Positions 16,027 to 30,294 of a stretch of DNA of 64,000 bases are shown in pieces. The position numbers and the translations under genes were made by a program. Source of the stretch: a virus (Duplodnaviria; Heunggongvirae; Uroviricota; Caudoviricetes); the IMG/VR virus record IMGVR_UViG_3300021399_000121, positions 43,502-107,501 of that record. One strand, written 5' to 3'. How positions within the stretch are numbered: position 1 is the first letter of the stretch; every line of letters begins with the position of its first letter. Below the pieces are notes generated by a model that searched no databases, was not told the DNA's origin, and saw only the letters and a program-made list of their open reading frames with translations.

Positions 16027-16953
16027 ATGACTAACTGTTTTAAACCTTACCTCCATGTTGAAAGATTGGGAAAAACAGAAGTTGATAATATTCTTTGTGG
16101 TACTGTAAGACTTACAGCAAAACTTGATGGTACTAATGCATCTGTGTGGGCAGACGAAGATGGTCGTATGCGTTATGGCAGTCGTAAACGTGAAATTTCT
16201 ATTGAAGATGATAATGCTGGTTTTGCCGCATGGATGAAATCTGATGCAGAAGAAGCTGCTCTCCTTATTCGTTTTTGTCAAGCTAATCCTCATATGATTG
16301 TTTATGGCGAATGGGGTGTATCTAAAGTAGGTGCAATTAAAAAGTATACTAAGGAAGCTATAAATAAACTTTGGATTTTTGATATTTATTCTCGTGAAGA
16401 AGAACGCTATCTCACTTGGGATGAATTCAATGCCGCACTTATTATGTATGATCTAATTGACTATCGAGTGAAGCTTCTGGCTACTTTGACTAACCCAACA
16501 CTTGAGGATATTATTAAGGTTGCAAATGAAAATACTTTCCTTCTTGAAGGAACTGACACTCTTGGAGAAGGTGTTGTAATTCGTAGAGACAATTATACAA
16601 ATTGCTATGGACGTTATGCTGTAGCAAAATATGTGCGGGAAGACTTTAGACCTGATACTCCAAGAGTAAAGAGAATTGTTCAGGCTGGCGAGATTGAACA
16701 AGATTTTATTAATCGTTATCTAACCCAATCTGAACTTGAGAAAGCTAAAGCTAAAACTGCTCTGGCTTGCGGTGAAGAATATGTTCCTGGTAATGGCAAG
16801 TTTATTGGTATGTTTCTTAATCTGCTCTGGAAAGATACTCTTGAAGAGAATATTGTAGATTTTTGTAAGCGTGCTAAGAATCCTCGAATTGATTTTGCCG
16901 CACTTAATGGTTTGATTAAAGCAGAAGGCCGCAAGTTCTTAGGGTTGATGTAA
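16027..16953 (+). CDS. ATP-dependent polynucleotide ligase of the Rnl2-like nucleotidyltransferase family.
   Basis: Motif I AKLDGTN (KxDGxN), motif III LWIFDIY, motif IV LGEGVVIRR and motif V YAVAKYV are all present. The length, 308 aa, is close to that of T4 Rnl2. Confidence 0.55.
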   Translation: MTNCFKPYLHVERLGKTEVDNILCGTVRLTAKLDGTNASVWADEDGRMRYGSRKREISIEDDNAGFAAWMKSDAEEAALLIRFCQANPHMIVYGEWGVSKVGAIKKYTKEAINKLWIFDIYSREEERYLTWDEFNAALIMYDLIDYRVKLLATLTNPTLEDIIKVANENTFLLEGTDTLGEGVVIRRDNYTNCYGRYAVAKYVREDFRPDTPRVKRIVQAGEIEQDFINRYLTQSELEKAKAKTALACGEEYVPGNGKFIGMFLNLLWKDTLEENIVDFCKRAKNPRIDFAALNGLIKAEGRKFLGLM

Positions 16954-16954
16954 T

Positions 16955-17236
16955 ATGAAGAAAATTTTATTTTCTCTTTTGGGTATTGTATTATGTTTTA
17001 GTGTGTGTGGCTGTGCTGGTTCAAAATTAGAAGCACATACTTCTAATGGCAAATCTTTGGAACACGATAGATTTAGAGTGATTGAAGGAGATTATGGCTC
17101 TGAAGCTATTATAGTTGACACTGAAACAGGTGTTGAATATTTATGGATTACTCCAGCTTATCGTAAAGCAGGATTAACTGTACTTGTTGACCATGATGGT
17201 AAACCATTAATCGCCCCAGGGTATAAGGATTCTTAA
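16955..17236 (+). CDS. Small lipoprotein.
   Basis: Signal peptide MKKILFSLLGIVLCFSVCGC with a lipobox-like FSVC. Confidence 0.45.
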   Translation: MKKILFSLLGIVLCFSVCGCAGSKLEAHTSNGKSLEHDRFRVIEGDYGSEAIIVDTETGVEYLWITPAYRKAGLTVLVDHDGKPLIAPGYKDS

Positions 17237-17362
17237 TGGATATATATAAAGTAGTATATGATGATGATCTTTGTTATCATTATGTATCATGGTTTTTTGA
17301 TTTGGATACTGCTAAAAAGTGGTGTAAGATAAATAACCATAATTGGATGCGATGGCATATAT

Positions 17363-17695
17363 ATGATAAGAGAGGACATGAAAAACATGGTGGATGTAAT
17401 GGACCATCTTACTTTGGAACGTAAAGAAATTCCTGTATATGTAGAAAATCTTTATAAATGGACACCGAAACCTGCTATATTAAAACGGGATATTTGCTGG
17501 GACATTCCAGTTTTAGAAGAGTTAGATTGTCCTTATTGTGGCAATAAAGATGGCGTTGATCTTTATTATGATAAAGATATATTTATTTATGTTGATCCAA
17601 AGGGATATCTGCGGTTTGGTACTCCTGATGGTGTAGGTAAAACTGAAATTCAGTTTTGTCCTATGTGTGGTAGACAATTAATAGGTGATAACTAA
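17363..17695 (+). CDS. Zinc-ribbon protein (CPYCG ... CPMCG).
   Basis: ORF track entry; two CxxC pairs. Confidence 0.4.
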   Translation: MIREDMKNMVDVMDHLTLERKEIPVYVENLYKWTPKPAILKRDICWDIPVLEELDCPYCGNKDGVDLYYDKDIFIYVDPKGYLRFGTPDGVGKTEIQFCPMCGRQLIGDN

Positions 17696-17985
17696 TGTGT
17701 GATATTGATAAAATATGGCCTAGTTATGAAGATGGCAGTAAAGTCCATGTTGGTGATTATATTTACTTTGAAAAAGAAGATACTGTTGGTTTAGTTACCG
17801 CTATTAGTTTTACAAAAAATAGTTTTCAAAAATATGTTGTCGATATAGATTATGAATGTAAAGGTCATTGGCATTGTGTCTATAAGACTTATGAAGAAAA
17901 ATATGTATATAAAGATGTTTCAGAAGTACCTGCTTATGCTGATGTTTTAGCACTACATAATTTTAAACGACCTCCTATGAAATAA
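17695..17985 (+). CDS. Hypothetical 96-aa protein.
   Basis: ORF track entry; start overlaps the upstream stop. Confidence 0.4.
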   Translation: MCDIDKIWPSYEDGSKVHVGDYIYFEKEDTVGLVTAISFTKNSFQKYVVDIDYECKGHWHCVYKTYEEKYVYKDVSEVPAYADVLALHNFKRPPMK

Positions 17986-18002
17986 TTATTGTTCTTATAA
18001 TA

Positions 18003-18030
18003 AGGTAGCTCTTGTCAGCTACCTTATTTT
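18003..18030 (+). terminator. Rho-independent terminator.
   Basis: GGTAGCTCTTGTCAGCTACC followed by TTATTTTTAT. Confidence 0.5.
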
Positions 18031-18067
18031 TATGTTATAATATTTTTATAAGGAAAGGGGAAATAGT

Positions 18068-18238
18068 ATGTCCAAAAAGAAGTATCATGGGTCTATTACT
18101 ATTGACCCTAAAATTATTTGGAATGCACAAAAGCCGCATTATAATGGTTGGATGTGCGGACATGGTGCGCATGGAAAAAACAAGTATAGCCGCAAACAAA
18201 AATATAAAACTGATTGGAGAAATTATGACCGAGATTAA
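18068..18238 (+). CDS. Small basic 56-aa protein.
   Basis: A conserved promoter at about 18030-18055 and the RBS AAGGGGAAATAGT precede ATG 18068. The ORF track instead shows a different out-of-frame start at 18012. Confidence 0.4.
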   Translation: MSKKKYHGSITIDPKIIWNAQKPHYNGWMCGHGAHGKNKYSRKQKYKTDWRNYDRD

Positions 18239-18581
18239 TCTTCTTGAAGAGACTGAGCGTGCTTTAATTTCTCATTATAAAACTTGGGATGATATTGCCT
18301 GGATTGGTGGGTATGATTTTTATATTAGTGTTGAACAATTTAAAGAAGCCGCAAAAGATACTAATTATGATGCTGGGTACGGTAGTGAAGAAGTTGCAAT
18401 AGATTTAGTTATTTGTTTTTATAATGGATCATGGCTATCTCGTGGATCTTATGATGGAAGTGAGTGGTGGGAATATAACGAATTTCCATCTAAGCCGCGA
18501 ACAAAATTTGAGGGTAGTGTTAAGTTAGCTGATCCTTGTGGGTACGATGCTTGGGAAGGTTTAAAGGGACTTAATAAATAA
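18224..18581 (+). CDS. Hypothetical protein (MTEINLLEE...).
   Basis: Internal ATG of ORF 18012..18581; overlaps the upstream gene in the ATGA arrangement. Confidence 0.4.
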
Positions 18582-18590
18582 GGAGTAATC

Positions 18591-19868
18591 ATGTCTTGGA
18601 ATCCTGTTTTAAATATGTTCATTGAAATAAAGAATGAATTTATTAAGGAGTGCGGCAAGGATGCTTTGTGGCAGTATGGCCGCGAGGATTCCTTTACTAA
18701 TTGTCTTTCCTATTGGGTGTGGACTCTTGGAAATCATGGTCATCCTAAGCGTCATTATTATTCTAAGGTGATTGAGCCTTTGCTTCTCAATGAGAGTATG
18801 GGTATGTTGCTTATTAAGTATAATGATCTTGGCATTGATTGGAATGCTTATGATGGTTTCTATCGTGAATGTCGGTCTGTTGTAATCGATGTACTTAATG
18901 ATTGTTTGGTTCTTACTCCTTTCCGTAAATTCTTTAATATTAATGAGCTTGAAGAAACTCAACTTCATGTTGTCCAAGAGAAGATAGATAATGCATCTAG
19001 GATAGAAATTACTGACAAGATTGATGGAAGTATGTGCGGTGCTCGTTGGTATCGCAAGGATCTTGTTATGTCTGGTTCTCAAGCTCTTGATATTAGTAAA
19101 TCTTATCGTTTGGAAAATTACTATCATTGGATGCATCAGCATGAAAATGCAGTACAAATGCTCAAAGATTATGATAATTTCACTTTTATTTTTGAAGGAG
19201 TTTTTCCTGATGATGTCCATATAGTACAGTATGACGAACAAATGTTCGGCTTGCATCTTCTTGGAATGCGGCGAGTAGAGGATGGCGTAGAATTACCTTA
19301 TAAGGATGTTGTAGAAATTGCAGAAAAGTATGATGTGCCGCATGTCAAAATTTTTGATATGACTTTTGAAGAGGCTTATCAGGATGCCCTTAATGATGGT
19401 CGTAAGGCCAATGAGGGCGAAGGGTATGTCATTGACATAGATGGTCAGAAGTATAAGCTCAAGTATAATGATTATGTTATGCTTCATCATGCTCTTTGTA
19501 AGATGGTTTCTCCTAATGCTATAATTGCAGCTATCCGTGAAGGCCGTTGGGATGATTTCTATTCAAAGATTCCTGTTGCATATCAACCGCAAGCTAAGGA
19601 AAAGGCTGATAATGTTTATAAATACGTACAAATGTTCGATGAACGTGTTATAAAGTGGTATAACCTCACTCGTGATTTTGTAGATTATACTAACGATCGC
19701 AAGACCTTTATGATTGCTGTTGATAAAGTTGTACCTAAGCAATATCAAGGGTCGGTACGTGCTAAGTTCTTAGGTCAAAAAATCGATTATTTCCGTGGTG
19801 TTAAGTACGGAGATATGATTGATTATATCGAGTTAATGCAGACTTTAACTTTAAATATTAAGGCTTGA
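18591..19868 (+). CDS. Second nucleotidyltransferase ligase, Rnl1-like. It ends at a TGA.
   Basis: Motif I KIDGSM (compare T4 Rnl1 KEDGSL), motif IV EGYVIDIDG and motif V KLKYNDYV. Confidence 0.45.
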   Translation: MSWNPVLNMFIEIKNEFIKECGKDALWQYGREDSFTNCLSYWVWTLGNHGHPKRHYYSKVIEPLLLNESMGMLLIKYNDLGIDWNAYDGFYRECRSVVIDVLNDCLVLTPFRKFFNINELEETQLHVVQEKIDNASRIEITDKIDGSMCGARWYRKDLVMSGSQALDISKSYRLENYYHWMHQHENAVQMLKDYDNFTFIFEGVFPDDVHIVQYDEQMFGLHLLGMRRVEDGVELPYKDVVEIAEKYDVPHVKIFDMTFEEAYQDALNDGRKANEGEGYVIDIDGQKYKLKYNDYVMLHHALCKMVSPNAIIAAIREGRWDDFYSKIPVAYQPQAKEKADNVYKYVQMFDERVIKWYNLTRDFVDYTNDRKTFMIAVDKVVPKQYQGSVRAKFLGQKIDYFRGVKYGDMIDYIELMQTLTLNIKA

Positions 19869-19937
19869 GAATGAAATTCTTTATTGACACCTGCATGTTA
19901 AATATGCTATAATATTATTATAAGAAAGGAGAGATAT

Positions 19938-20432
19938 ATGACTCAATGTGATGAAGCTATCCGTCGTCAGTTGCGTAAGCCTACTGTGTATATTATGTGC
20001 GGCGTGCCTGGTTCTGGCAAGACATATTTTTGTAAGAACGTATTGATGGATCATCCTTGGCGTAGTCGAGTCTATATCTCTTCTGATGATATTCGTGAAG
20101 AGCTTTATGGTGATGCTAGTAATCAATCTCTTAATGGTATCGTTTTTGATATTTTTTATGAGCGTGCTCGTGAAGCTATCAAAAATGGTAGTGACGTAAT
20201 TCTTGATGCAACGCATCTGACTAAGAAATCTCGTCGCAAATGCCGCAATCATTTTAAAGATTTGGATTGTAAGTTTATTGTGGTTCAGATGAATACATCG
20301 ATATTGGATGCGGTTTATCGTAATAAGAAACGTGACAGGGTTGTCCCTGCTGATGCGATGAATCGCATGATTGAAGTATATCAGCCTGTTGAAGATAGCG
20401 AAGGTTTTGATTATATCTGGAAGGTAGATTAA
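19938..20432 (+). CDS. P-loop polynucleotide-kinase-like protein.
   Basis: Walker A GVPGSGKT lies near the N-terminus of a 164-aa protein. It is adjacent to a phosphoesterase and two ligases. Confidence 0.5.
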   Translation: MTQCDEAIRRQLRKPTVYIMCGVPGSGKTYFCKNVLMDHPWRSRVYISSDDIREELYGDASNQSLNGIVFDIFYERAREAIKNGSDVILDATHLTKKSRRKCRNHFKDLDCKFIVVQMNTSILDAVYRNKKRDRVVPADAMNRMIEVYQPVEDSEGFDYIWKVD

Positions 20433-20992
20433 TGATTTATCTAAGCTCAGATTTACATTTTGGACATGACCGTGGTTTTATCTATGAGCCGCGAGGATTT
20501 TCTAGTATCCAGGAGCATGATGAAGCAATCATTGAAAGATTTAATAGCGTTGTGCGGCCTGATGATGATCTCTATCTCTTGGGTGATCAAATGCTTGGTG
20601 ATAATGAACATGGTTTAGATTGTTTGCTACGGCTTAATGGTAAACTTCATATTCTTTGGGGTAACCATTGTACTAATGTGCGTAAAGAATTATATTATAC
20701 TCTTTCTAATGTTGTAGAGACTCTTGGATATGCGGGAATACTTAAATATAAAAAGTGGAGGTTTTATCTTTCGCATTATCCTACTATTACGGATAACCTT
20801 AATGATGTGTCTAAGCCTTGGGAACAAGTAAAATGTCTTTATGGACATACTCATCAAAAGACTAATTTCTATAGTGATAATCCTTTGCTTTATCATGTAG
20901 GCGTGGATAGTCATAATTGTTATCCTGTAAGTATTGATCAAATCATTGAAAATATTCAAGCTAAGTTTTTAGAATGTAAACAGATGCTTTAA
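20432..20992 (+). CDS. Calcineurin-like metallophosphoesterase.
   Basis: Motifs DLHFGHD, LGDQ and GNHC are present. The start overlaps the upstream stop. Confidence 0.6.
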   Translation: MIYLSSDLHFGHDRGFIYEPRGFSSIQEHDEAIIERFNSVVRPDDDLYLLGDQMLGDNEHGLDCLLRLNGKLHILWGNHCTNVRKELYYTLSNVVETLGYAGILKYKKWRFYLSHYPTITDNLNDVSKPWEQVKCLYGHTHQKTNFYSDNPLLYHVGVDSHNCYPVSIDQIIENIQAKFLECKQML

Positions 20993-21128: not shown

Positions 21129-21159
21129 TTGACAATTGAAAAGAAAATATGATATAATA
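21129..21159 (+). promoter_or_regulatory. Strong sigma70 promoter firing into the 1.4-kb ORF-free block upstream of the tRNA array.
   Basis: TTGACA at 21129-21134 and TATGATATAAT ending at 21159. Confidence 0.55.
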
Positions 21160-21165: not shown

Positions 21166-22600
21166 TAAGGTTGAGAGAGTTAATAAGGTGCTTCTAAAGA
21201 AGAAACACAATATTAGGTTTCTTAACCTAATAACCTTGAAAACAGAATAGTTGAAGATTTAGGTGCAACTCAGTGCAGAGCGGTGTCAACGTGCTGAGGG
21301 TTCTTCTCAATGAGTTGAGACTCCTGAAGGATACTTCCGCAGTCAAGCTTTAAGGTGAATCGTGAGGTTTACTTTAGAAGGTAGGAACTACCAACAAAAT
21401 GAAGAATGCGCTTAGTCTATTTGCTAAGGAAAGATACTTGTAAATTGTCGTCTCCGCAATAGACGCCCCAGTGGGGAAGAATCCAGAACACTTATTAACA
21501 GGTGGTGCTGAATAAGAAAAAGCTGGAAATACCAATAAGGAGATTGAGCTGTTGACTCTCTGGTAACAGAGGGAATAAGACAAGGGCAAGGTTCGAGTAG
21601 CACAAAGCAGCTCCTTATATTAATGAATATTAGGAGAATATATTAATGCTGAAAGACGTGTGAAAGTTGTGGGTAATCATTCCTACGGTAGAGATGGCCT
21701 TAACGGCTGGGGTAAGAAGTATGACGGTCGCTCCGATATACTCAGCCTTATCTCCTACATGATCGAATATCCAGTAAATAGATGCGGTACAGTGAAGACT
21801 GGCATGTATATCTTCAACTATTCTGTTTGAAGGAATTGACGTAATAGTTCGTTCGCGTCATTAAATAAAACGGCATCCTGGTTAGGCAGGTTTATAAAAG
21901 AGAGTAGCCTAACATGCTCTCTAGTGTGATTTAGTGTATACAGAGTAAGGCTTTTTATTGCTGATTGGCCCGCTGCGTACTTCTTGACATGGTTAAAAAC
22001 CGCAGAAAAGAATTCAGCAACCCGGAAGATTGGTCTAAGACTGTGCTAGGAAAAGGCTAAAAAGACTAGTTACGTAACTGGTATGCGGACACCGCTCGGT
22101 AGAGAAAGTCCGCAACGTAGCTTAAAGGGCTGAGATAACTGCTAAACAGTTTATGCCTTAGAGGGCATTTATAAAAAATGCTTTCTTAGGTATATTTAAT
22201 GCCAGTGTAGTGAGAATCGACTACACTATAAAATAAAATCATGATTCTCTGGTTTTGAAATCACCTGAACCAAAAAGAATTTCTGTTTTTATGTGTTTGA
22301 ACGAAATCAAGTACATCCCGCGCAAGATAGGGTGATGATCTTGCCGCAAGTCTATGCGTAAAGTAAAGATCGCTTGTAGGTTAAGAGCGTCAGAACCTTC
22401 TGTAGTTTATACTTTCTCTACGATAAGGGTGGTGCCTATGAAAGTATCTTCTCTTGGAGGATATACCTATATATCTAAAAATCATATCAGCCATAACGGG
22501 TATATCTTCCAAAAGGAGTAATCCTATTGTCGTTGCGAGCATGCCGATAAGACGTTAAACTATTTCGTATGCGGTGGTCGTGTTACACCTTACCCAACAC
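21166..22600 (+). ncRNA. Candidate large structured ncRNA of the GOLLD/ROOL class by genomic context.
   Basis: About 1.4 kb with no ORF longer than about 70 aa in six frames. GC is about 45-50%. A consensus promoter lies directly upstream and the 17-tRNA array directly downstream. Confidence 0.35.
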
Positions 22601-22609: not shown

Positions 22610-22685
22610 GGCCTTGTAGTTAAGTTGGTTATAATAATTGTCTTGTAAACAATAGTCCTCAGTTCGAATCTGTGCGAGGCCTCCA
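22610..22685 (+). tRNA. tRNA-Thr (anticodon TGT).
   Basis: Cloverleaf folded by hand: acceptor GGCCTTG/CGAGGCC, anticodon loop CTTGTAA, T-loop TTCGAAT, CCA encoded. Confidence 0.6.
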
Positions 22686-22688
22686 TAC

Positions 22689-22763
22689 CGGGCGTTAGTG
22701 AAGCGGTTATCACAATGGTCTGTCTAACCATTATCACGGGTTCGATTCCCGTACGCCTGGCCA
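22689..22763 (+). tRNA. tRNA-Asp (anticodon GTC); tentative.
   Basis: D-stem GTGA/TCAC, anticodon stem ATGGT/ACCAT with loop CTGTCTA, T-arm ACGGGTTCGATTCCCGT, CCA encoded. Confidence 0.45.
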
Positions 22764-22766
22764 TAT

Positions 22767-22853
22767 GCCGAAGTCGCATAGTCTGGTCAATTGCATCGCG
22801 CTGTAAACGCGACGGCTCGTCCTGCGGGAGTTCAAATCTCTCCTTCGGCACCA
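22767..22853 (+). tRNA. tRNA-Tyr (anticodon GTA), type II with a long variable arm.
   Basis: Acceptor GCCGAAG/CTTCGGC, anticodon loop CTGTAAA, long variable arm, CCA encoded. Confidence 0.6.
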
Positions 22854-22862
22854 GTTAATTAC

Positions 22863-22940
22863 ACCCCAGTAGCTCAGTCTGAAAAGAGCATTGCGCTACG
22901 GACGCAAGTGTCGTGGGTTTGAATCCTACCTGGGGTGCCA
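22863..22940 (+). tRNA. tRNA-Arg (anticodon ACG).
   Basis: Acceptor ACCCCAG/CTGGGGT (7 bp), D-arm TAGCTCAGT, loop CTACGGA, CCA encoded. Confidence 0.6.
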
Positions 22941-22949
22941 ATAATCAAT

Positions 22950-23024
22950 GGGAGTCTAGCTGAGATGGATTAGCAAGGGTCTGAAAAGCCCTGGAGGAGG
23001 GATCGTTACCTTCGGCTCCCACCA
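22950..23024 (+). tRNA. tRNA-Phe (anticodon GAA) with an atypical T-loop, ATCGTTA.
   Basis: Acceptor GGGAGTC/GGCTCCC, anticodon stem AGGGT/GCCCT with loop CTGAAAA, CCA encoded. Confidence 0.5.
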
Positions 23025-23025
23025 T

Positions 23026-23100
23026 GCGGGGTTAGCTCAATGGTGGAGCAGAGGACTCATAATCCTTTGGCTGTAGGTTCAAATCCTACACTCCGCACCA
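23026..23100 (+). tRNA. tRNA-Met/fMet (anticodon CAT).
   Basis: Acceptor GCGGGGT/ACTCCGC, loop CTCATAA, T-loop TTCAAAT, CCA encoded. Confidence 0.6.
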
Positions 23101-23103
23101 AAT

Positions 23104-23180
23104 GCGCTTGTAGCAGAATTGGCATATGCACCGGACTCAAAATCCGGGATTTGTGAGTTCGACTCTCACCAGGCGCACCA
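23104..23180 (+). tRNA. tRNA with a tRNA-Trp-like body but anticodon loop CUCAAAA (nominal anticodon CAA) on a type I scaffold. It is a candidate recoding tRNA.
   Basis: Its anticodon stem CCGGA/TCCGG and T-arm GTGAGTTCGACTCTCAC closely resemble bacterial tRNA-Trp. A CAA anticodon on a short-variable-arm tRNA is anomalous. CCA is encoded. Confidence 0.45.
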
Positions 23181-23183
23181 AAT

Positions 23184-23264
23184 GCCCTTGTGGTGGAATT
23201 GGAAGACACGCGTGCCTTAGGAGCACGTGCTTAGGCGTGGGGGTTCGAATCCCTCCAGGGGCAG
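23184..23264 (+). tRNA. tRNA-Leu (anticodon TAG), type II.
   Basis: Acceptor GCCCTTG/CAGGGGC, anticodon stem CGTGC/GCACG with loop CTTAGGA, long variable arm. Confidence 0.55.
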
Positions 23265-23325
23265 TTGCGAGAATCAGAAACCTCCACGTGGTTCGCAATG
23301 GTTAACACTAATATCTGATATTTAT

Positions 23326-23396
23326 TGGCGATTAGTTCAATAGTAGAACTCGGGCCTTTGGCACCCGTAACGGGGGAGCGTTACCTCCATCGCCAG
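23326..23396 (+). tRNA. tRNA-Gln (anticodon TTG). Position 1 is U, as in bacterial tRNA-Gln.
   Basis: Acceptor TGGCGAT/ATCGCCA, loop CTTTGGC, atypical T-loop AGCGTTA. Confidence 0.5.
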
Positions 23397-23398
23397 CC

Positions 23399-23473
23399 CG
23401 TTCCTTAGTATAAAAGTTATTACAGACGCCTGATAAGCGTCAGAACCAGGAGCGTTACCTGGAGGAACGACCA
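23399..23473 (+). tRNA. tRNA-Ile (anticodon GAT).
   Basis: Acceptor CGTTCCT/AGGAACG, anticodon stem GACGC/GCGTC with loop CTGATAA, T-stem CCAGG/CCTGG, CCA encoded. Confidence 0.55.
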
Positions 23474-23475
23474 AT

Positions 23476-23552
23476 GTCGGCATCGTCTAGTTGGACTAGG
23501 ACACTACCCTTTCAAGGTAGAAACGCGGGATCGTAGCCCGCTGCTGATACCA
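23476..23552 (+). tRNA. tRNA-Glu (anticodon TTC).
   Basis: Anticodon stem CTACC/GGTAG with loop CTTTCAA, T-arm GCGGGATCGTAGCCCGC, CCA encoded. Confidence 0.5.
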
Positions 23553-23869
23553 TAGACACTACCTCCAAAAGTGATGATACTTTTATGTGCGGAGGTCATG
23601 AACCGCACATCCAGTAAAATCATGGATGGACTAATGAGCATAGCGGTGTTAGATGCATGGTTCTGATCATGACAGAGACGGTGGTGATGCTTGTGTAGCT
23701 ATCACCCTATGCGACCATAAAGAGAAAAGAATATAATATGATAGAAAAAATTAAAAATTGAATTACAAAAAGAAAATATCATCACGTTTTAACATGCGGT
23801 GCAGCTTCAATTATTATAAAAAATTAGTTGACTCCTGTTCAATATTTATGATATAATATATTTATAAGG

Positions 23870-24073
23870 TTGAGAGGAGATAATATGGCTGATAAGAAAG
23901 TTGTTCATCGTATTTATCATCCTAAAGGATGGGTTGTGCGGACTTACTCAACTAACAAGCAAGCTAAAGCTTTTATTGAGGGTATTAATTTCAATATTCC
24001 CTCTTGGCATTATGATGAACTTTATAAGATGCGGGCGGAGGTAACGGATAGTGACGAAATCTGCTATGCTTAA
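23870..24073 (+). CDS. Small protein encoded inside the tRNA array (MADKKVVHRIYHPKGW...).
   Basis: Conserved promoter at 23822-23860 and RBS GGAGATAAT. Confidence 0.4.
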   Translation: MRGDNMADKKVVHRIYHPKGWVVRTYSTNKQAKAFIEGINFNIPSWHYDELYKMRAEVTDSDEICYA

Positions 24074-24257
24074 AAAATATATTGTTTGTGAAGAATGCAT
24101 TGATGGAAAATGGGGATTTTATTCTATTCGTATGAATACTGATTGTAGTCCTTCACGTTTTATTATAGTTGCAAGTTTTGATACGTATGAAGAAGCAAAT
24201 GAATACATAGATTATTTATTGCATCCAGAAGATTATTTTAATCATGATGATGATTAG
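24051..24257 (+). CDS. Small hypothetical 68-aa protein.
   Basis: ORF track entry; overlaps the upstream gene. Confidence 0.35.
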   Translation: MTKSAMLKKYIVCEECIDGKWGFYSIRMNTDCSPSRFIIVASFDTYEEANEYIDYLLHPEDYFNHDDD

Positions 24258-24266
24258 CACCTTGTG

Positions 24267-24338
24267 ACGCGGGGTAGAGTACTGGTAACTCAACGTCCTC
24301 ATAAGTCGTGATATACGCGTTCGAATCGCGTCCCCGCG
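24267..24338 (+). tRNA. Second CAT-anticodon tRNA, either an elongator Met or a lysidine-modified Ile2.
   Basis: Acceptor CGCGGGG/CCCCGCG (perfect 7 bp), D-stem GAGT/ACTC, loop CTCATAA, T-arm ACGCGTTCGAATCGCGT. Confidence 0.55.
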
Positions 24339-24471
24339 ACACAGGGTAGCTGCATACCTGTTCGATAAAGTTCAAAAAGATAGCAGAGAGATGAAGGGTG
24401 AAACCGGATAATAGATACAATGTCTGAACTACTAAAGTATCTTTCTCTCTTAAAATTTTATTCCCGGTTCG

Positions 24472-24535
24472 TTCAACGGCAGGACGCGACACTGTTAATG
24501 TCGTTATACTGGTTCGAATCCAGTACTGGGAGCCA
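24472..24535 (+). tRNA. tRNA-Asn (anticodon GTT).
   Basis: Acceptor TCCCGGT/ACTGGGA, anticodon stem CGACA/TGTCG with loop CTGTTAA, T-arm ACTGGTTCGAATCCAGT, CCA encoded. Confidence 0.55.
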
Positions 24536-24538
24536 TAT

Positions 24539-24802
24539 TCGCTCGTGACGCAGCTGGTAGCGTAGTGGACTTTCGATTGGAAGCCTTATAAGGAAACTTA
24601 TAAGTGAACAGCTCGCTAAATCGGTGAAACCTTTAAAATGGTAATACCGAGCAAGGGAAACCGTGTGTAGAGACTTTACACGAGCCACCTAAGTTTTATA
24701 ATATGGTGAAGATAAAGTCCAGACCACAAACAGAAATGGCTATGAAAATAGTAGTGGTATGTAATCCATTAGTCGCGGGTTCGAATCCCGCCGGGCGAAC
24801 CA
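24539..24802 (+). tRNA. Candidate split tRNA with an anticodon-loop intron. The 5' half is at 24539-24572 and the 3' half at 24765-24802, separated by about 190 nt.
   Basis: The acceptor TCGCTCG pairs 7/7 with CGGGCGA across 250 nt. The 5' half has a canonical D-arm (ACGC AGCTGGTA GCGT) and the 5' strand of an anticodon stem, GTGGA. The 3' half has the partner strand TCCAT, T-arm GCGGGTTCGAATCCCGC and an encoded ACCA. One possible splice restores the loop CUUUUAA (Lys-UUU); another restores CUUGUAA (Thr). Confidence 0.35.
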
Positions 24803-24804
24803 AT

Positions 24805-24880
24805 ACCGAGTTAGCTTAATTGGCAAAGCGCGACACTCTTAATGTCGGAGATGTGGGATCGTGGCCCATGCTCGGTACCA
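24805..24880 (+). tRNA. tRNA-Lys (anticodon CTT).
   Basis: Acceptor ACCGAGT/GCTCGGT, D-stem GCTT/AAGC, anticodon stem CGACA/TGTCG with loop CTCTTAA, CCA encoded. Confidence 0.55.
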
Positions 24881-24890
24881 AATAACAAAT

Positions 24891-24967
24891 ACCCGTGTCG
24901 TATAAATGGAAGTATAGCTTGACTCCAAATCAAGAAGGCGTCTGTTCGATTCGGACTGCGGGTGCCA
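24891..24967 (+). tRNA. tRNA-Trp (anticodon CCA).
   Basis: Acceptor ACCCGTG/TGCGGGT, anticodon stem CTTGA/TCAAG with loop CTCCAAA, T-arm GTCTGTTCGATTCGGAC, CCA encoded. The D-stem appears to pair U11-A24. Confidence 0.55.
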
Positions 24968-24975
24968 TATAATAA

Positions 24976-25051
24976 GCCGCATTAGCTCAAGAGGAAGAGC
25001 CGTAGTCTTCTAAACTACTTGTTATAGGTTCGAGTCCTATATGCGGCGCCA
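24976..25051 (+). tRNA. tRNA-Arg (anticodon TCT).
   Basis: Acceptor GCCGCAT/ATGCGGC, D-arm TAGCTCAAGAGGAAGAGC, loop CTTCTAA, CCA encoded. Confidence 0.6.
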
Positions 25052-25064
25052 GTTAATTATAAAC

Positions 25065-25154
25065 GGAAGATTGGCCGAGTCTGGATTATGGCGCCTGCCT
25101 CGAAAGCAGGTGTACCGCTAGGTACCGTGGGTTCAAATCCTACATCTTCCGCCA
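25065..25154 (+). tRNA. tRNA-Ser (anticodon CGA), type II.
   Basis: Acceptor GGAAGAT/ATCTTCC, anticodon stem CCTGC/GCAGG with loop CTCGAAA, long variable arm, CCA encoded. Confidence 0.55.
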
Positions 25155-25261
25155 TTTTTTTCTTTTTTATAATCAATTCTGCCAAATAACAAAAAATTAT
25201 AATCATTTGTGATATAATTTTATATATAATAGAAAAGATATTATTGCAGGAAGGAGAGATT

Positions 25262-27016
25262 ATGAAGAAGTTTTTAGCCATTTTATTAACAATAATGTGT
25301 TTAATGATCATTCCTATCACCGCATATGCCGCAGATGATAATGACGCGACACATGATATTACTGTGGAGTGGTATATTGGAGATTGGGATGGTAACGAAC
25401 AACTCCTAGAGTCAGATTTCATTGAAGATGTTCCTAATGGAGTCTTTAATTATAAAGATTTAGTTTGGAATCCAAAGGGTGGAACTTTTTACCGTGAATA
25501 TGGGATTTTACCTATTATTAGAGTAAATGGAAAATATTATTTGCTCTCTTGGACAGATGTTGAATGCAATTATCCTATGAATAATGATGCCTGGGAAGTT
25601 GAATTTAAACAAGAGCCTAACCATCCTGGAGACGATGAAAATTGTTATATGGGTTTTCATTATTCAGAAGTAAAGTTTGCAACAAAAGAAACTAAAGATA
25701 AAATTAAAGTAAGTATTGATGGCTCAGCCAATGAAAATTTAACAGAACCTACAACTTATCAAGTATATCAAATTTTTGATGTGCGGAAGTCTGCTGATGT
25801 CCAAGAGGATGTAACTACAGATGAAACTGTTGGAAAAACAATAACAAATGAAGATAGCGGATTCGCATATTATATTAAAAGTAATAGTGAATGGTATGAT
25901 GTAATTGCATCAATGCCGCAATATTTCAATTTAATTCAAACAACTGAAGAAGGTTTATATAATGTTGTTCTTGCGGATGGGGTAGTTCCGCAAGAGTCTA
26001 CTGCTATTGAAATTGCTGCAGAGCTTGAAAAACATATCGATGGTAAAACTAGTACAACATTAACCGCAAATGAAGCTAATATGGAAATGAATCCAGGTTA
26101 TTATTTAATTGTCTCTCCAATTAATTCTAATCTCATTTTAGCTACAACGAATATTGATATTACTGAAAAAGCTCAATATCCTACAATAGAAAAAACTATC
26201 GCAGAAGAAGATATTAACTCTTCTATTGGACAATTAGTTCATTTTACAGTAAATGTAAAATTTCCCAGAGGAAGTAAAGCATCTGCGGTTATTACAGATG
26301 TTATGGATGAAGGTTTAACTTTTAAAGAAATTACTTCTATTAATATTAATAATTATAATATTAATACAACTAAAGATGGTTTTGAAATTAATATAGATGC
26401 AGATACTATTAAAGCATTTGCGGCCGATAGTGAAAATACTTTAACTTTTGAATATACTGCTTTAGTTAATAAAAAGGCTATTGTTAATACGGATATCAAT
26501 AATGAAGTTACTTTAACATATGTAAATTATGTTCAATCTGATTCCGTAAAAACATCTGTAACAGAAATGAATCTTTTGAAGTATGCCGCAGAAGATGAAG
26601 ATAAAAATGTCTTATCTGGTGCAGAATTTCAAATTCTAGATGAAGATGGTACTCCTGTTGAACTATATGAAATTACACCTGATACAGAATATAGAGTAGC
26701 AACCGAGGAGGATGCTACTTCAATGAATACCTTTCGCACCAGAAACACACTTATTAGCATCAACGGGCTCGATGCAGATAAACATTACAGATTACGGGAA
26801 ATTAATGCTCCAGCAGGATATAATAAATTGTCCTCTGATGTTTCAGTGGAGCTCCAACAAACTTCCTCAGTCCTTCTAGAAATAGCTAATTTTAAAGGTA
26901 TAGAGCTTCCCTCTACAGGTGGAATTGGCGTTATAATCTTTTATCTGATAGGTGGGGTATTAATTCTTATCGGAATTATCTGTCTCGTCTATCATAAGAA
27001 AAAAACAAAAGAATAA
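25262..27016 (+). CDS. Secreted, sortase-anchored (LPXTG-type) surface protein, adhesin- or pilin-like.
   Basis: RBS AGGAAGGAGAGATT precedes ATG 25262. It has an N-terminal signal peptide. The C-terminus carries LPSTGG, a hydrophobic helix and HKKKTKE. Internal beta-rich repeats are present. Confidence 0.6.
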   Translation: MKKFLAILLTIMCLMIIPITAYAADDNDATHDITVEWYIGDWDGNEQLLESDFIEDVPNGVFNYKDLVWNPKGGTFYREYGILPIIRVNGKYYLLSWTDVECNYPMNNDAWEVEFKQEPNHPGDDENCYMGFHYSEVKFATKETKDKIKVSIDGSANENLTEPTTYQVYQIFDVRKSADVQEDVTTDETVGKTITNEDSGFAYYIKSNSEWYDVIASMPQYFNLIQTTEEGLYNVVLADGVVPQESTAIEIAAELEKHIDGKTSTTLTANEANMEMNPGYYLIVSPINSNLILATTNIDITEKAQYPTIEKTIAEEDINSSIGQLVHFTVNVKFPRGSKASAVITDVMDEGLTFKEITSININNYNINTTKDGFEINIDADTIKAFAADSENTLTFEYTALVNKKAIVNTDINNEVTLTYVNYVQSDSVKTSVTEMNLLKYAAEDEDKNVLSGAEFQILDEDGTPVELYEITPDTEYRVATEEDATSMNTFRTRNTLISINGLDADKHYRLREINAPAGYNKLSSDVSVELQQTSSVLLEIANFKGIELPSTGGIGVIIFYLIGGVLILIGIICLVYHKKKTKE

Positions 27017-27038
27017 TTAAACGAATGGGGATTTTATA

Positions 27039-27257
27039 ATGAGAATTATTAAACAAGGACGTATTCCTAATCTTGAATATTTATTTACTTGTAATACATG
27101 CGGATGTGAATTTGCTGTAACTCGTTATGAATTAATTAATGAAAATTCTTATATTGATAAAAGTTCTTACAAATGTCCTATTTGTGGAGAACAAGCTTAT
27201 GGCCCTATTATGCAAGAGGTTGAAGAGTCTGAATCTGAGAGTGATCGTGAAGAATAA
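27039..27257 (+). CDS. Small zinc-ribbon protein (CNTCG ... CPICG).
   Basis: ORF track entry; RBS GGGGATTTTATA. Confidence 0.4.
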   Translation: MRIIKQGRIPNLEYLFTCNTCGCEFAVTRYELINENSYIDKSSYKCPICGEQAYGPIMQEVEESESESDREE

Positions 27258-27445
27258 TGTCGGAAAATATGATTTTTAATTGTGAAAAATGCGGAAAAGC
27301 TTTTTTTGCTACTCCGCAAGATTATAGAACAACTTTTTGACGAGGGGATTTTATAAAAGAATCTTATTGTCCTTATTGCGGCGCCATTATTCAAATACAT
27401 TCAAAAGATAATTCTTTTTCAAGTTCTAATGGAGGAAAATTTTAA
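27257..27445 (+). CDS. Paralogous zinc-ribbon protein (CEKCG ... CPYCG) with an in-frame TGA at 27338-27340.
   Basis: Overlapping starts and stops (TAATG at both ends). The two Cys pairs are restored only if the TGA is sense. Confidence 0.35.
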
Positions 27446-28413
27446 TGGCAGTATTATTTAATTCTGTTCGTCCACTTTATCGTTGTGAAAATTTAACCGC
27501 CATTTGGAATGCTTATCAAGAAGATAAAACATTTAAACAATATGGATATGGTGATTTAACTAAAAGCTGTAGAGATTTTCCTGTTGTTGTAACAGATGAA
27601 TTTATACGCAATAAGGTTATTGGTCAAAAAATAATTATGATTGCCCATGGTTTAACGGGTGGTAAACTTTATGGAATAGATCAGCCGCATGGGCAATTTA
27701 AACCACAATGCTGTAGATTAACAAACTATTATATTACTAGTAGTGAATACGGTCGTAAATTCGCGTCTAGCGCTGCGGGTATTCCAATTGATAGATGCCT
27801 CGCACTAGGTATGCCTCGTACTGATAATTATATAAATAAACAAAGAGGAGACGGAGGAACCTTCTTAGCAAAAAGCTATAATAGAGTTTATTTATATTTA
27901 CCAACTTTTCGTGCAAAATATAATAAACCAACGCCTAAAATAAATTATGAATATTTAAATTCATTGTTAGAAGAGGATGAGTTATTTGTTGTAAAAAGAC
28001 ATATGATCAGTAAAAAGAGGATATTGCCGCACACAATGTCCAATATTTATGAAGTCGATAGTGTGGAAATAACAACTCCTTATCTCTTGGATTGTGATGT
28101 TGTCGTAACTGATTTTAGTAGCGTTATGTTTGATGCTCATTTTTTAAATAAGCCTGTTGTACTTACTGCAGATGAAAATGATGAATATTTAATTTCTCGT
28201 GGTATGTATATGAATTATCCTTATGATTATAGTTCTAGAGCTATAGCAGTTGAAGGAAATGAAGAGAAACTTGTAGCTCTTATGAGAGACGCTGCTTCAA
28301 ATGGTATGACAGATGTAGAATTACAATGTCGAGAACGCACTTCTGGCGCTTGCGATGGACATTCAAGTGAGCGAGTGGTTAAATTAATTAAAGATATTAT
28401 AAATGAGACTTAA
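27445..28413 (+). CDS. CDP-glycerol glycerophosphotransferase-like (TagB/TagF family) teichoic-acid-type transferase.
   Basis: LYLPTFR resembles the conserved (Y)APT(W/F)R motif of TagB/TagF; 322 aa. Confidence 0.45.
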   Translation: MAVLFNSVRPLYRCENLTAIWNAYQEDKTFKQYGYGDLTKSCRDFPVVVTDEFIRNKVIGQKIIMIAHGLTGGKLYGIDQPHGQFKPQCCRLTNYYITSSEYGRKFASSAAGIPIDRCLALGMPRTDNYINKQRGDGGTFLAKSYNRVYLYLPTFRAKYNKPTPKINYEYLNSLLEEDELFVVKRHMISKKRILPHTMSNIYEVDSVEITTPYLLDCDVVVTDFSSVMFDAHFLNKPVVLTADENDEYLISRGMYMNYPYDYSSRAIAVEGNEEKLVALMRDAASNGMTDVELQCRERTSGACDGHSSERVVKLIKDIINET

Positions 28414-30117: not shown

Positions 30118-30197
30118 GCGCATATGGCGGAGTCTGGTCGATCGCAACGGCCTGCAAAGCCGTATAATCGTTAGTTCAAATCTAACTATGCGCTCCA
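30118..30197 (+). tRNA. tRNA-Cys (anticodon GCA).
   Basis: Acceptor GCGCATA/TATGCGC, anticodon stem ACGGC/GCCGT with loop CTGCAAA, T-arm GTTAGTTCAAATCTAAC, CCA encoded. Confidence 0.55.
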
Positions 30198-30201
30198 ATA
30201 T

Positions 30202-30294
30202 GGAAGTGTGGCCGAGTGGTTGATGGCGCTTCTCTGCTAAAGAAGTAGGCGATGTAGAGTCGTTTCCGGGGTTCAAATCCCCGCACTTCCTCCA
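30202..30294 (+). tRNA. tRNA-Ser (anticodon GCT), type II.
   Basis: Acceptor GGAAGTG/CACTTCC, anticodon stem CTTCT/AGAAG with loop CTGCTAA, long variable arm, CCA encoded. Confidence 0.55.

What the first reader, a model, noticed from the sequence alone, without database searches (positions are those of the whole stretch)
24539..24802. tRNA split by an approximately 190-nt insertion in the anticodon loop
A 7/7 acceptor stem (TCGCTCG / CGGGCGA), a canonical D-arm, both strands of a 5-bp anticodon stem (GTGGA / TCCAT), a canonical T-arm and an encoded ACCA are all present. The 5' part (D-arm plus the 5' strand of the anticodon stem) and the 3' part (3' anticodon strand, T-arm, ACCA) lie about 190 nt apart. 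The intervening sequence has its own hairpins and no ORF. This suggests a small group-I-like or other intron in a phage tRNA. One splice choice gives a Lys(UUU) loop and another a Thr loop.
Basis: seen in the sequence. Interest (0 to 1): 0.65.

Follow-up and report, generated by a model that had tools for sequence, protein, structure and literature searches.

The report
Self-splicing intron inside a phage tRNA-Lys gene
A phage lysine-tRNA gene is interrupted in its anticodon loop by a compact 188-base group I (self-splicing) intron of the classic bacterial tRNA-intron family, which is mechanistically ordinary, although I found no paper describing such introns in phage tRNA genes and standard annotation tools miss this one.

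Summary
Positions 24539-24802 (+) encode a complete tRNA split by 188 nt (24574-24761) between anticodon-loop positions 35 and 36.

The insert is a bona fide group I intron:
- Rfam RF00028 scores 59.9 bits (cut-off 50).
- The 5' exon ends in U24573, which forms a wobble pair with G24580 in P1.
- The intron ends in G24761.
- One guide sequence pairs with both exons (P1 and P10).
- A full P2-P9 core is present, with a GAAA loop and an 11-nt receptor.

In 27 related introns 91% of proposed pairs hold (31-39% in slid controls), and 30 of 47 pairs show changes on both sides.

Splicing gives tRNA-Lys(UUU). The Thr alternative lacks the terminal G.

The same intron sits in two related viral contigs, in tRNA-Lys bodies with compensatory stem changes. 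Close relatives interrupt tRNA genes in at least 74 of 84 viral contigs found with one motif. One is an unannotated tRNA-Leu in Agrobacterium phage Atu_ph07. The core matches bacterial tRNA introns classed as IC3.

Verdict: a new member of a known kind. Self-splicing is inferred, not shown. Interest is moderate: a 2014 review said no phage intron was known in a tRNA gene.

The parts
24539..24573 (+). 5' exon of tRNA-Lys(UUU): acceptor 5' strand, D arm, anticodon-stem 5' strand, and loop nucleotides 32-35 (CUUU)
   Evidence: It ends in U24573, the group I -1 uridine.
24574..24761 (+). Group I intron, 188 nt, with no ORF
   Evidence: RF00028 scores 59.9 bits against a gathering score of 50. The family model R1 scores 203.7 bits and finds a single copy in the window. 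Covariation is, the fold z-score of -3.06, and the absence of an internal + strand ORF.
24575..24583 (+). Internal guide sequence GAUUG|GAAG. G24580-G24583 pair with C24570-U24573 (P1, with the U24573.G24580 wobble at the splice site). G24575-G24579 pair with U24762-C24766 (P10).
   Evidence: Pairs verified. The guide co-varies with the exon across tRNA types: GAGU for Leu ACUU, GGUC for Met GACU, GAAG/GGAG for Lys CUUU.
24585..24604 (+). P2 hairpin, 8 bp, with a GAAA tetraloop (24593-24596)
   Evidence: All 8 pairs show changes on both sides in the family (helix 1).
24611..24615 (+). P3 5' strand; pairs with 24681-24685
   Evidence: 5/5 pairs co-vary and 100% of cells are paired (helix 2).
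24621..24650 (+). P4 (24621-26 / 24645-50), P5 (24629-31 / 24640-42), and the A-rich J4/5 (AA) and J5/4 (AA)
   Evidence: helix 3, 94.7% paired. A 26-nt stretch of this region (GGTGAAACCTTTAAAATGGTAATACC) matches exactly in the 735-kb phage LR756501 and in 6 further viral-contig loci.
24651..24666 (+). P6, shortened to 6 positions with one A.G mismatch, and a GAAA loop (24657-60)
   Evidence: Relatives have a longer P6, which accounts for 188 nt here against 196-220 nt in them.
24670..24676 (+). P7 5' strand, with bulged A24671 before the G24672-C24719 pair (the presumed guanosine-binding site); pairs with 24715-24720
   Evidence: 100% paired. The last pair switches U-A/A-U in 12 of 27 sequences (helix 5). 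The role as G-binding site is inferred by analogy.
24681..24685 (+). P3 3' strand
24686..24708 (+). P8, containing the canonical 11-nt GAAA-tetraloop receptor (CCUAAG 24688-93 / UAUGG 24702-06)
   Evidence: The outer stem is 100% paired with covariation (helix 6).
24709..24720 (+). J8/7 (AAGAUA) and P7 3' strand (AAGUCC)
   Evidence: Matches the Rfam consensus gAAGAUAuAGUC.
24724..24757 (+). P9.0-like stem CCAC/GUGG (24724-27 / 24754-57) enclosing the P9 hairpin (24740-43 / 24748-51) with a GAAA loop (24744-47)
   Evidence: All 4 P9 pairs co-vary and 100% are paired. P9.0 is 100% paired with one compensatory C-G to U-A change in L001 (helices 8 and 9).
24761..24761 (+). Terminal guanosine (omega G) of the intron
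   Evidence: It is conserved in all relatives mapped.
24762..24802 (+). 3' exon: loop nucleotides 36-38 (UAA), anticodon-stem 3' strand, variable loop, T arm, acceptor 3' strand, A73, and the encoded CCA

Best explanation
Positions 24539-24802 encode a phage precursor tRNA-Lys(UUU). Its anticodon loop is interrupted between nucleotides 35 and 36 by a compact, ORF-less group I intron (24574-24761) of the bacterial tRNA-intron (IC3, Azoarcus/cyanobacterial-type) lineage.

Proposed mechanism (inferred):
1. The gene is transcribed as part of the tRNA array.
2. The intron folds into the P1-P9 ribozyme. The L2 GAAA loop probably docks into the 11-nt receptor in P8.
3. A free guanosine bound at P7 attacks the bond after U24573. 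That bond is marked by the U24573.G24580 wobble in P1.
4. The terminal G24761 then occupies the guanosine site. P10 (24575-79 with 24762-66) aligns the 3' exon, and the 3'-OH of U24573 attacks after G24761.
5. The products are a 76-nt tRNA with the loop CUUUUAA and a free 188-nt intron.

Shown here: the sequence anatomy, the match to the family model, the covariation, and the conservation of the exons as a tRNA. Inferred: catalysis itself, and the tertiary contacts, which are drawn by analogy with the Azoarcus intron.
For: - RF00028 scores 59.9 bits against a gathering score of 50, E 5.5e-15.
- U-1.G wobble, omega G, a 4-bp P1 and a 5-bp P10 from one contiguous guide sequence, and all core helices are verified base by base.
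- On 27 family members, 91.2% of cells pair against 31-39% when partners are slid by 1-3 columns. 30 of 47 pairs change on both sides. No shuffle of 500 reached the observed value on four of the five measures, and 2 of 500 did on the fifth (further standard pair types).
- The minimum-energy fold independently recovers P2, P4, P5, the GG/CC pairs of P6, outer P8, P9.0 and P9, with z = -3.06.
- The spliced product is called tRNA-Lys(UUU).
- Intron-less phage tRNA-Lys(UUU) genes have an identical 23-nt anticodon arm.
- Orthologous split genes lie in two viral contigs (L013, L036), each duplicated by a metagenome contig (L099, L098). The intron is about 95% identical to the window's, while the acceptor stems differ by fully compensated changes: UCGCUCG/CGGGCGA, UGCCUGG/CCAGGCA, UCUGCCG/CGGCAGA.
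- The guide sequence co-varies with the exon in relatives inserted in Leu, Arg, Met and Lys genes.
- The core motif GAAGGTGTAGAGACTWGACGG occurs in at least 120 bacterial loci. Of 81 motif sites in the 80 fetched, 66 lie in split tRNAs.
- Near-identical blocks occur in introns classed IC3 in Table S5 of PMC13011429. One is a Bacillota_A tRNA-Asn intron at the same 35/36 site.
- AAA makes up 73% of Lys codons in the window's ORFs, and no other tRNA-Lys(UUU) is in the window.
Against: - No RNA data or splicing assay exists, so activity is inferred.
- P6 is unusually short and has an A.G mismatch.
- P1 is only 4 bp before an A.C mismatch.
- In orthologue L036, P10 is reduced to about 2 bp.
- Whole-window Rfam scans did not report the intron, which I attribute to the speed filters.
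- The subgroup (IC3) was assigned by similarity to published IC3-labelled sequences, not by running subgroup models.
Confidence: 0.88

Rival explanations
1. The intron is a decayed, catalytically dead relic and the locus is a tRNA pseudogene. The phage relies on host tRNA-Lys(UUU).
For: P6 is truncated and carries a mismatch, and P1 is short. The intron is at the small end of the reported range of 184-894 nt.
Against: All catalytic-core elements, including J8/7, P7 with its bulged A, P3 and J4/5, match the consensus. The same intron is kept in three diverged tRNA-Lys bodies whose stems change only by compensated substitutions. That pattern indicates selection on the spliced product. Helices still co-vary across the family.
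Confidence: 0.05
2. The intron is removed by proteins rather than by itself. One route is cleavage followed by healing and sealing by the phage RNA ligases, polynucleotide kinase and phosphoesterase encoded 4-8 kb upstream. Another is splicing that depends on a maturase or chaperone.
For: Two RNA ligases (16027-16953, 18591-19868), an AAA_33 kinase (19938-20432) and a metallophosphoesterase (20432-20992) lie just upstream of the tRNA array. Very small group I introns sometimes fold poorly on their own (general knowledge).
Against: A complete group I ribozyme with co-varying helices is present. The site is 35/36, not the 37/38 site typical of endonuclease-spliced introns. No splicing endonuclease turned up among the 15 proteins I scanned in the window. 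The ligase, kinase and phosphatase set is the standard phage tRNA-repair module described for jumbo phages. Relatives of the intron occur in many contigs without regard to such genes.
Confidence: 0.04
3. The pattern is chance or an assembly artefact: two unrelated tRNA halves that happen to flank a structured spacer.
For: Default tRNA finders do not call the gene.
Against: The same architecture is found in independent assemblies: L013, L036, L098 and L099. The acceptor stem is 7/7 and the anticodon stem 5/5 across the gap. E = 5.5e-15 for the intron model.
Confidence: 0.01

Closest known systems
[quoted passage not shown]
   Same: Both are compact, ORF-less introns in a tRNA anticodon loop, built from P1-P2-P3-P4-P5-P6-P7-P8-P9.0-P9 with no large peripheral domains. 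Both carry GAAA loops on P2 and P9 and a tetraloop receptor in P8. From memory, the Azoarcus core strings (CAAAUUCGG.GAAACC, CCGAGCCAAGC, GAAGGUGUAGAGACUAGACGG, CACCUAAGG, UAUGG) are nearly those of this family. The 205-nt size and robust self-splicing are documented in PMC13168695.
   Different: Here the host gene is a phage tRNA-Lys(UUU). From memory, the Azoarcus intron lies 3' of the anticodon; here the site is 35/36. This intron is 17 nt shorter, mainly through a truncated P6.
Bacterial tRNA group I introns at position 35/36 (tRNA-Asn/Asp; Nakagawa et al. 2026, PMC13011429), in particular the Bacillota_A tRNA-Asn(GUU) intron of GCA_022846035.1
   Same: The insertion site is the same (35/36), the 3' exon starts with the same UAA, and the exon ends in U. 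The Bacillota_A example is classed IC3 and shares blocks with this intron: GAGCAAGG, UGUGUAGAGACUUUACACG, CACCUAA and AUGGUGAAGAnAAAGUCC. That paper shows experimentally that 35/36 introns self-splice.
   Different: Those are in bacterial chromosomes and in Asn/Asp genes, and most 35/36 introns there are subgroup IA. This one is in a phage, in tRNA-Lys(UUU). In the part of their Table S5 I could read, Lys(UUU) appears only at 34/35.
Cyanobacterial/plastid tRNA-Leu(UAA) intron (34/35)
   Same: It belongs to the same sequence family. Phage relatives of this intron sit in tRNA-Leu(UAA) at CUU|AAAA. These are LR756501, Atu_ph07 and many IMG/VR contigs.
   Different: It differs in tRNA, insertion site and guide sequence.
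Classical phage group I introns (T4 td/nrdB/sunY, Twort, SPO1; mostly subgroup IA2)
   Same: Both are self-splicing group I introns carried by a phage.
   Different: The classical ones interrupt protein-coding genes, often carry homing endonuclease ORFs, and belong to other subgroups. This one interrupts a tRNA gene, has no ORF, and is of the bacterial tRNA-intron type. Members of the same family do occur in phage protein genes, for example crAss-like cr111_1 with a GIY-YIG ORF, and L003-L008.

Membership tests
Group I intron (Rfam RF00028) | Conserved catalytic core: P3-P8 with the P4-P6 and P3-P9 domains and the J8/7 and P7 consensus | tested here: met
   59.9 bits against a gathering score of 50. 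Helices verified. Covariation: 91.2% paired, 30/47 pairs with double changes.
Group I intron (Rfam RF00028) | 5' exon ends in U that forms a G.U wobble in P1 with the internal guide sequence | tested here: met
   U24573.G24580, within P1 C24570-U24573 / G24580-G24583.
Group I intron (Rfam RF00028) | Intron ends in guanosine (omega G) | tested here: met
   G24761. It is conserved in all mapped relatives.
Group I intron (Rfam RF00028) | P10 pairing of the guide sequence with the 3' exon | tested here: met
   G24575-G24579 with U24762-C24766, 5 bp, contiguous with P1. It is weaker in orthologue L036, at about 2 bp.
Group I intron (Rfam RF00028) | Guanosine- and Mg2+-dependent self-splicing by two transesterifications | not testable with these tools
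   Needs an in vitro splicing assay or RNA-seq.
IC3 subgroup / bacterial tRNA-intron clade | Classification by subgroup covariance models (GISSD or Selles Vidal 2025) | not testable with these tools
   Subgroup models are not available here. Published relatives with the same sequence blocks are labelled IC3.
IC3 subgroup / bacterial tRNA-intron clade | Insertion in a tRNA anticodon loop, compact core without P5abc or P7.1/7.2 extensions, and sequence kinship with bacterial tRNA introns | tested here: met
   The site is 35/36 of the anticodon loop. All 188 nt are accounted for by P1-P9. The 21-nt core motif is found in at least 120 bacterial loci. 66 of its 81 sites in the 80 fetched loci lie in split tRNAs.
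Functional tRNA-Lys(UUU) | Cloverleaf with a 7-nt anticodon loop CUUUUAA after splicing, and a discriminator plus CCA | tested here: met
   ARAGORN calls the spliced 76-mer tRNA-Lys(ttt). Stems verified. An identical anticodon arm occurs in the intron-less phage tRNA-Lys genes L100 and L101.
Functional tRNA-Lys(UUU) | Charged with lysine and used in translation | not testable with these tools
   Only indirect support: AAA is 73% of Lys codons, and stems change by compensated substitutions among orthologues.
Mobile (homing) group I intron | Encodes a homing endonuclease | tested here: not met
   No + strand ORF lies within the 188 nt. Relatives L005 and L025 (introns of 695 and 756 nt) and cr111_1 (GIY-YIG) are large enough to carry ORFs, or do carry one.
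Group II intron | Match to the group II model (domains V/VI); size usually above 400 nt | tested here: not met
   No RF00029 match even at E up to 10 in the local scan. The length is 188 nt.
Protein-spliced (archaeal/eukaryal type) tRNA intron | Bulge-helix-bulge motif at the junctions, usually at position 37/38 | tested here: not met
   The position is 35/36. The junction nucleotides are taken up by P1 and P10. No formal bulge-helix-bulge search was run.

The most novel reading that the evidence does not exclude
IC3-type group I introns may be a widespread feature of phage tRNA genes that I could not find documented, and they may be more than selfish passengers. They recur in the isoacceptors for A-ending codons (Lys-UUU, Leu-UAA, Arg-UCU). 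Here the split gene lies a few kb downstream of a tRNA-repair module. They could gate the supply of phage tRNAs in time, or by GTP/Mg2+ status. They could also keep the anticodon loop out of reach of host anticodon nucleases until splicing. From memory, tRNA-Lys(UUU) is the target of PrrC. Nothing in my data tests either idea.
Probability: 0.1. Interest if true: 0.65.

Novelty: new member of a known kind. Interest (0 to 1): 0.4.

Why it matters
The mechanism is textbook, but three points are useful.

1. A 2014 review stated that every phage intron then known lay in a protein-coding gene, despite the many phage tRNA genes (PMC3984707). I found no later paper reporting otherwise in eight full-text searches and seven other papers read. 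Yet one 23-nt motif alone retrieves 84 viral contigs, and at least 74 carry the intron inside a tRNA gene. A cultured jumbo phage, Atu_ph07, has an unannotated split tRNA-Leu.

2. Such genes are invisible to default ARAGORN and to whole-window Rfam scans, so phage tRNA repertoires are under-counted. Here the missing tRNA is the one for the phage's main lysine codon. This bears on studies of phage codon adaptation, recoding and counter-defence by tRNA supply.

3. At 188 nt, with three GAAA loops and a textbook 11-nt receptor, this is a very compact natural group I ribozyme. It could serve as a minimal model or engineering scaffold if it proves active.

Tried and rejected
- **Whole-window Rfam scans** at gathering and E-value thresholds, and a scan of loci L001/L002, reported no intron. 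Only short-range scans did. I treat this as a filter artefact, not as evidence against the intron.
- **Thr(UGU) splice choices** are rejected because the intron would end in U or A and P1/P10 would be lost.
- **ARAGORN's own anticodon calls** for the split gene (Tyr gta, Stop tta) are rejected because it assumes the wrong intron boundaries.
- **The 5'-junction motif GGACTTTCGATTGGAAG** gave four chance hits in coding DNA and one true orthologue.
- **The exact P6 motif** found nothing in 185,579 reference genomes, so no prophage or host was identified.
- **A second copy in the window** was sought with a family model and filters off. The best other hit scored 13.9 bits, on the wrong strand inside a gene. 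I reject it.
- **Global pairwise identities** to published introns were not discriminating: an IB2 intron also gave about 77%. I rely on shared sequence blocks instead.
- **An apparent suppressor-like tRNA** ('ca') in relatives L013 and L036 was inspected and not pursued.
- **Literature searches** for group I introns in phage tRNA genes returned nothing relevant. The library lacks most subscription journals, so absence is weak evidence.

Full report
**1. The observation**

The window carries a + strand tRNA array at 22610-25154 and 30118-30294. Default ARAGORN finds tRNA-Asn(GUU) at 24462-24535 and tRNA-Lys(CUU) at 24805-24880, and nothing between them.
- acceptor stem 24539-45 / 24792-98, 7/7 with one U.G pair
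- D stem 24548-51 / 24560-63
- anticodon stem 24565-69 / 24765-69, 5/5 with one G.U pair
- T stem 24775-79 / 24787-91 with loop UUCGAAU
- discriminator A24799 and an encoded CCA

With introns allowed, ARAGORN calls exactly 24539-24802 as a split tRNA. This is the only such call in the 64 kb on either strand. The insert is 188 nt, not about 190.

**2. What the insert is**

A scan of 24500-24830 against all Rfam families gives the group I intron model RF00028 at 24562-24743. The score is 59.9 bits against a gathering score of 50, with E 5.5e-15. There is no group II match. The same model is not reported when the whole window is scanned. I attribute this to the speed filters.

The anatomy is canonical:
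- **Splice sites.** The 5' exon ends CUUU, and U24573 forms a wobble pair with G24580 in P1 (C24570-U24573 / G24580-G24583). The adjacent guide nucleotides G24575-G24579 pair with the first five nucleotides of the 3' exon (P10). The intron ends in G24761.
- **P2** is an 8-bp hairpin with a GAAA loop.
- **P3** is 24611-15 / 24681-85.
- **P4-P5** carries A-rich J4/5 and J5/4.
- **P6** is short and has a GAAA loop.
- **P7** is 24670 and 24672-76 / 24715-20. Bulged A24671 precedes the G24672-C24719 pair, the usual position of the guanosine-binding site.
- **J8/7** reads AAGAUA.
- **P8** holds a textbook 11-nt GAAA receptor (CCUAAG / UAUGG).
- **P9.0-like stem** CCAC/GUGG encloses the P9 hairpin, which has a third GAAA loop.

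The minimum-energy fold of the intron alone recovers P2, P4, P5, the GG/CC pairs of P6, outer P8, P9.0 and P9, with z = -3.06. No + strand ORF lies inside the intron.

**3. Which tRNA**

Only one splice choice satisfies U at -1 paired with G, a terminal G, and a 7-nt loop: CUUU|...G|UAA. It gives the loop CUUUUAA. ARAGORN calls the 76-nt product tRNA-Lys(UUU). The two Thr(UGU) choices would end the intron in U or A.

Other evidence agrees:
- The array already has tRNA-Thr(UGU) and tRNA-Lys(CUU), but no other Lys(UUU).
- AAA is 73% of lysine codons in the window's ORFs.
- Intron-less tRNA-Lys(UUU) genes in two viral contigs (L100, L101) carry the identical 23-nt anticodon arm.

The insertion site is 35/36.

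**4. Relatives and covariation**

There is no close match among 50,697 GenBank phage records. A distant search links the core to the 735-kb phage LR756501 and the 3' part to crAss-like phage cr111_1.
- In LR756501 the intron splits a tRNA-Leu(UAA).
- In cr111_1 a related intron carries a GIY-YIG ORF and lies just upstream of the annotated helicase gene.

The 23-nt P7-to-P9 string GTCCAGACCACAAACAGAAATGG matches exactly in 84 IMG/VR loci. ARAGORN in intron mode places 74 of them inside split tRNAs. Mapping by the U-1/omega-G rule gives these hosts:
- Leu(UAA) at 34/35
- Arg(UCU) at 34/35 and 33/34
- Lys(UUU) at 34/35 and 35/36
- Met or Ile2(CAU) at 33/34

An Asn(GUU) host at 35/36 rests on a separate candidate call and my reading of the 3' junction.

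The guide sequence changes with the exon: GAGU for ACUU, GGUC for GACU, and GAAG or GGAG for CUUU.

I aligned 27 non-identical members (A1). On my hand-drawn P2-P9 structure, 91.2% of cells form standard pairs. When the 3' partners are slid by 1-3 columns, only 31-39% do. 30 of 47 pairs change on both sides. No shuffle of 500 reached the observed value on four of the five measures, and 2 of 500 did on the fifth. P3, P7, outer P8, P9.0 and P9 are 100% paired. A covariance model built from A1, run with filters off, finds only this copy in the window: 203.7 bits, with the next hit at 13.9 bits.

**5. Orthologues**

The same Lys-35/36 intron occurs in IMG/VR contigs 3300021399_000112 (L013, 140.7 kb) and 3300021426_000095 (L036, 64.8 kb). 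Each is duplicated by a metagenome contig, L099 and L098 respectively. In all of them the gene is followed by the same tRNA-Lys(CUU). L013 is syntenic with window 16.7-32.2 kb, with most aligned blocks at about 74-95% identity.

The introns are about 95% identical, but the exons are three different tRNA-Lys bodies. Their acceptor stems are UCGCUCG/CGGGCGA, UGCCUGG/CCAGGCA and UCUGCCG/CGGCAGA, and every change is compensated. That pattern argues for selection on the spliced tRNA and against a pseudogene.

**6. Relation to known families**

Of its 81 sites in the 80 loci fetched, 66 lie in split tRNAs, mostly Leu(UAA).

Table S5 of Nakagawa et al. 2026 lists sequences with the same blocks, classed IC3. 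One is a Bacillota_A tRNA-Asn(GUU) intron at 35/36 that shares GAGCAAGG, UGUGUAGAGACUUUACACG and AUGGUGAAGAnAAAGUCC with this one.

That paper reports bacterial tRNA introns of 184-894 nt. It an unusual site that is enriched in Patescibacteria, and it shows experimentally that 35/36 introns self-splice. In the part of its Table S5 that I could read, Lys(UUU) appears only at 34/35.

The Azoarcus tRNA-Ile intron (205 nt, robust self-splicing) is the closest well-studied model. I recall its sequence and its L2-P8 and L9-P5 contacts from memory, so those remain an analogy and not a test.

**7. Is it new?**

Hausner, Hafez and Edgell (2014) wrote that all phage introns then known lay in protein-coding genes, despite the many phage tRNA genes. 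Eight full-text searches, and reading of the tFind preprint, the crAss-like phage paper, the group I intron database paper, the theta-ribozyme paper and a jumbo-phage review, found no report of group I introns in phage tRNA genes. The library lacks most subscription journals, so this is weak negative evidence.

The cultured Agrobacterium jumbo phage Atu_ph07 carries a tRNA-Leu(UAA) split by a 278-nt intron of this family. It is not annotated as a tRNA, and a 'hypothetical protein' CDS overlaps its 3' part.

I file the finding as a new member of a known kind. The ribozyme and its mechanism are known. The phage tRNA context and the Lys(UUU) 35/36 setting appear to be unrecorded.

**8. Context**

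The window is a phage:
- PHROG hits to terminase large subunit and tail receptor-binding proteins.
- Collagen-like, tail-fibre-like ORFs that open only when TGA is read through. Over 1-10475 there are 46 in-frame TGA against 30 TGG; 59192-63290 behaves likewise.
- Gram-positive signatures: an LPxTG pilin-like gene and a teichoic-acid glycerophosphotransferase.

Upstream of the array lie two RNA ligases, a polynucleotide kinase-like ATPase and a phosphoesterase, then a ROOL RNA. I read these as the usual phage tRNA-repair set, not as a splicing apparatus.

**9. Rivals**

| Rival | Confidence | Main objection |
|---|---|---|
| Dead intron or tRNA pseudogene | about 0.05 | Intact core and compensated exon changes |
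| Protein-dependent removal | about 0.04 | Complete co-varying ribozyme at a non-canonical site for endonuclease splicing |
| Chance or assembly artefact | about 0.01 | Independent assemblies and the model score |

**10. Verdict**

Self-splicing is inferred and awaits an in vitro or RNA-seq test. Interest is moderate at 0.4. The ribozyme is ordinary, but the finding points to an apparently unreported and easily missed class of interrupted phage tRNA genes.

Noticed in passing
window 21245-21821 (+), promoter-like site 21129-21158: A full-length ROOL RNA (RF03087, 331 bits) lies about 800 nt upstream of the tRNA array. It is preceded by a perfect TTGACA-18-TATAAT site with an extended TG.
   Followed up: partly
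window 23264-23341 (+): A sub-threshold HDV-like ribozyme match (RF02682, 28.2 bits against a gathering score of 44, E 9e-4 in a 161-nt scan). It starts at the last base of tRNA-Leu(UAG) 23183-23264, and its 3' end overlaps the next tRNA. It may be a 'theta'-type ribozyme that trims a tRNA 3' end, as described for recoded gut phages in PMC10879173.
   Followed up: partly
window 23326-23396 and 23399-23473 (+): A tRNA found by Rfam (42.2 bits) but missed by ARAGORN looks like tRNA-Gln(UUG) with a C.A closing pair. Both it and the adjacent tRNA-Ile(GAU) have an unusual T loop, AGCGUUA, instead of UUCRAAU.
   Followed up: no
window 1-10475 and 59192-63290 (+): The late or structural genes open into ORFs of 1146, 1660 and 682 codons only if TGA is read through. 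Over 1-10475 there are 46 in-frame TGA against 30 TGG. Genes at 16-38 kb contain no in-frame TGA. No UCA suppressor tRNA was found in the window; only tRNA-Trp(CCA) at 24891-24967.
   Followed up: partly
window 16027-20992 (+): An RNA-repair gene set lies just upstream of ROOL and the tRNA array: RNA ligase (16027-16953), T4 Rnl1-like RNA ligase (18591-19868), an AAA_33 kinase (19938-20432) and a metallophosphoesterase (20432-20992).
   Followed up: partly
window, whole; also L001, L002: Method caveat. Rfam scans of 64 kb, and even of 6 kb, miss group I introns that score above the gathering cut-off when a stretch of about 300 nt is scanned. Other intron families in this window could have been missed in the same way.
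   Followed up: partly
L014-L097 (IMG/VR), L001 (LR756501), L222 (Atu_ph07 MF403008 112.9-113.2 kb): The same intron family interrupts tRNA genes in at least 74 of 84 viral contigs. Contig L052/L095 has three split tRNAs. Phage Atu_ph07 has an unannotated split tRNA-Leu(UAA) whose 3' part is overlapped by a 'hypothetical protein' CDS.
   Followed up: partly
L014, L017, L031, L100 and others: Many phage 'tRNA-Leu(UAA)' genes, both split and intact, have a short variable arm (about 73 nt mature length). This is atypical for tRNA-Leu, so their amino-acid identity is unclear.
   Followed up: no
window 25244-28413 (+): A Gram-positive pilin-like protein with Cna-B/SpaA domains, an LPSTG sorting motif and a membrane anchor lies between the two tRNA blocks of the phage, next to a CDP-glycerol glycerophosphotransferase.
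   Followed up: no
window 24535-24539 vs L013 6570-7091 and L036 513-1032: Relatives have a spacer of about 520 nt between tRNA-Asn and the split tRNA-Lys. The window has 3 nt there.
   Followed up: no
window 4001-6000 and 48001-50000: G+C rises to 0.50 and 0.47 against about 0.35 elsewhere. GC skew changes sign near 48 kb.
   Followed up: no
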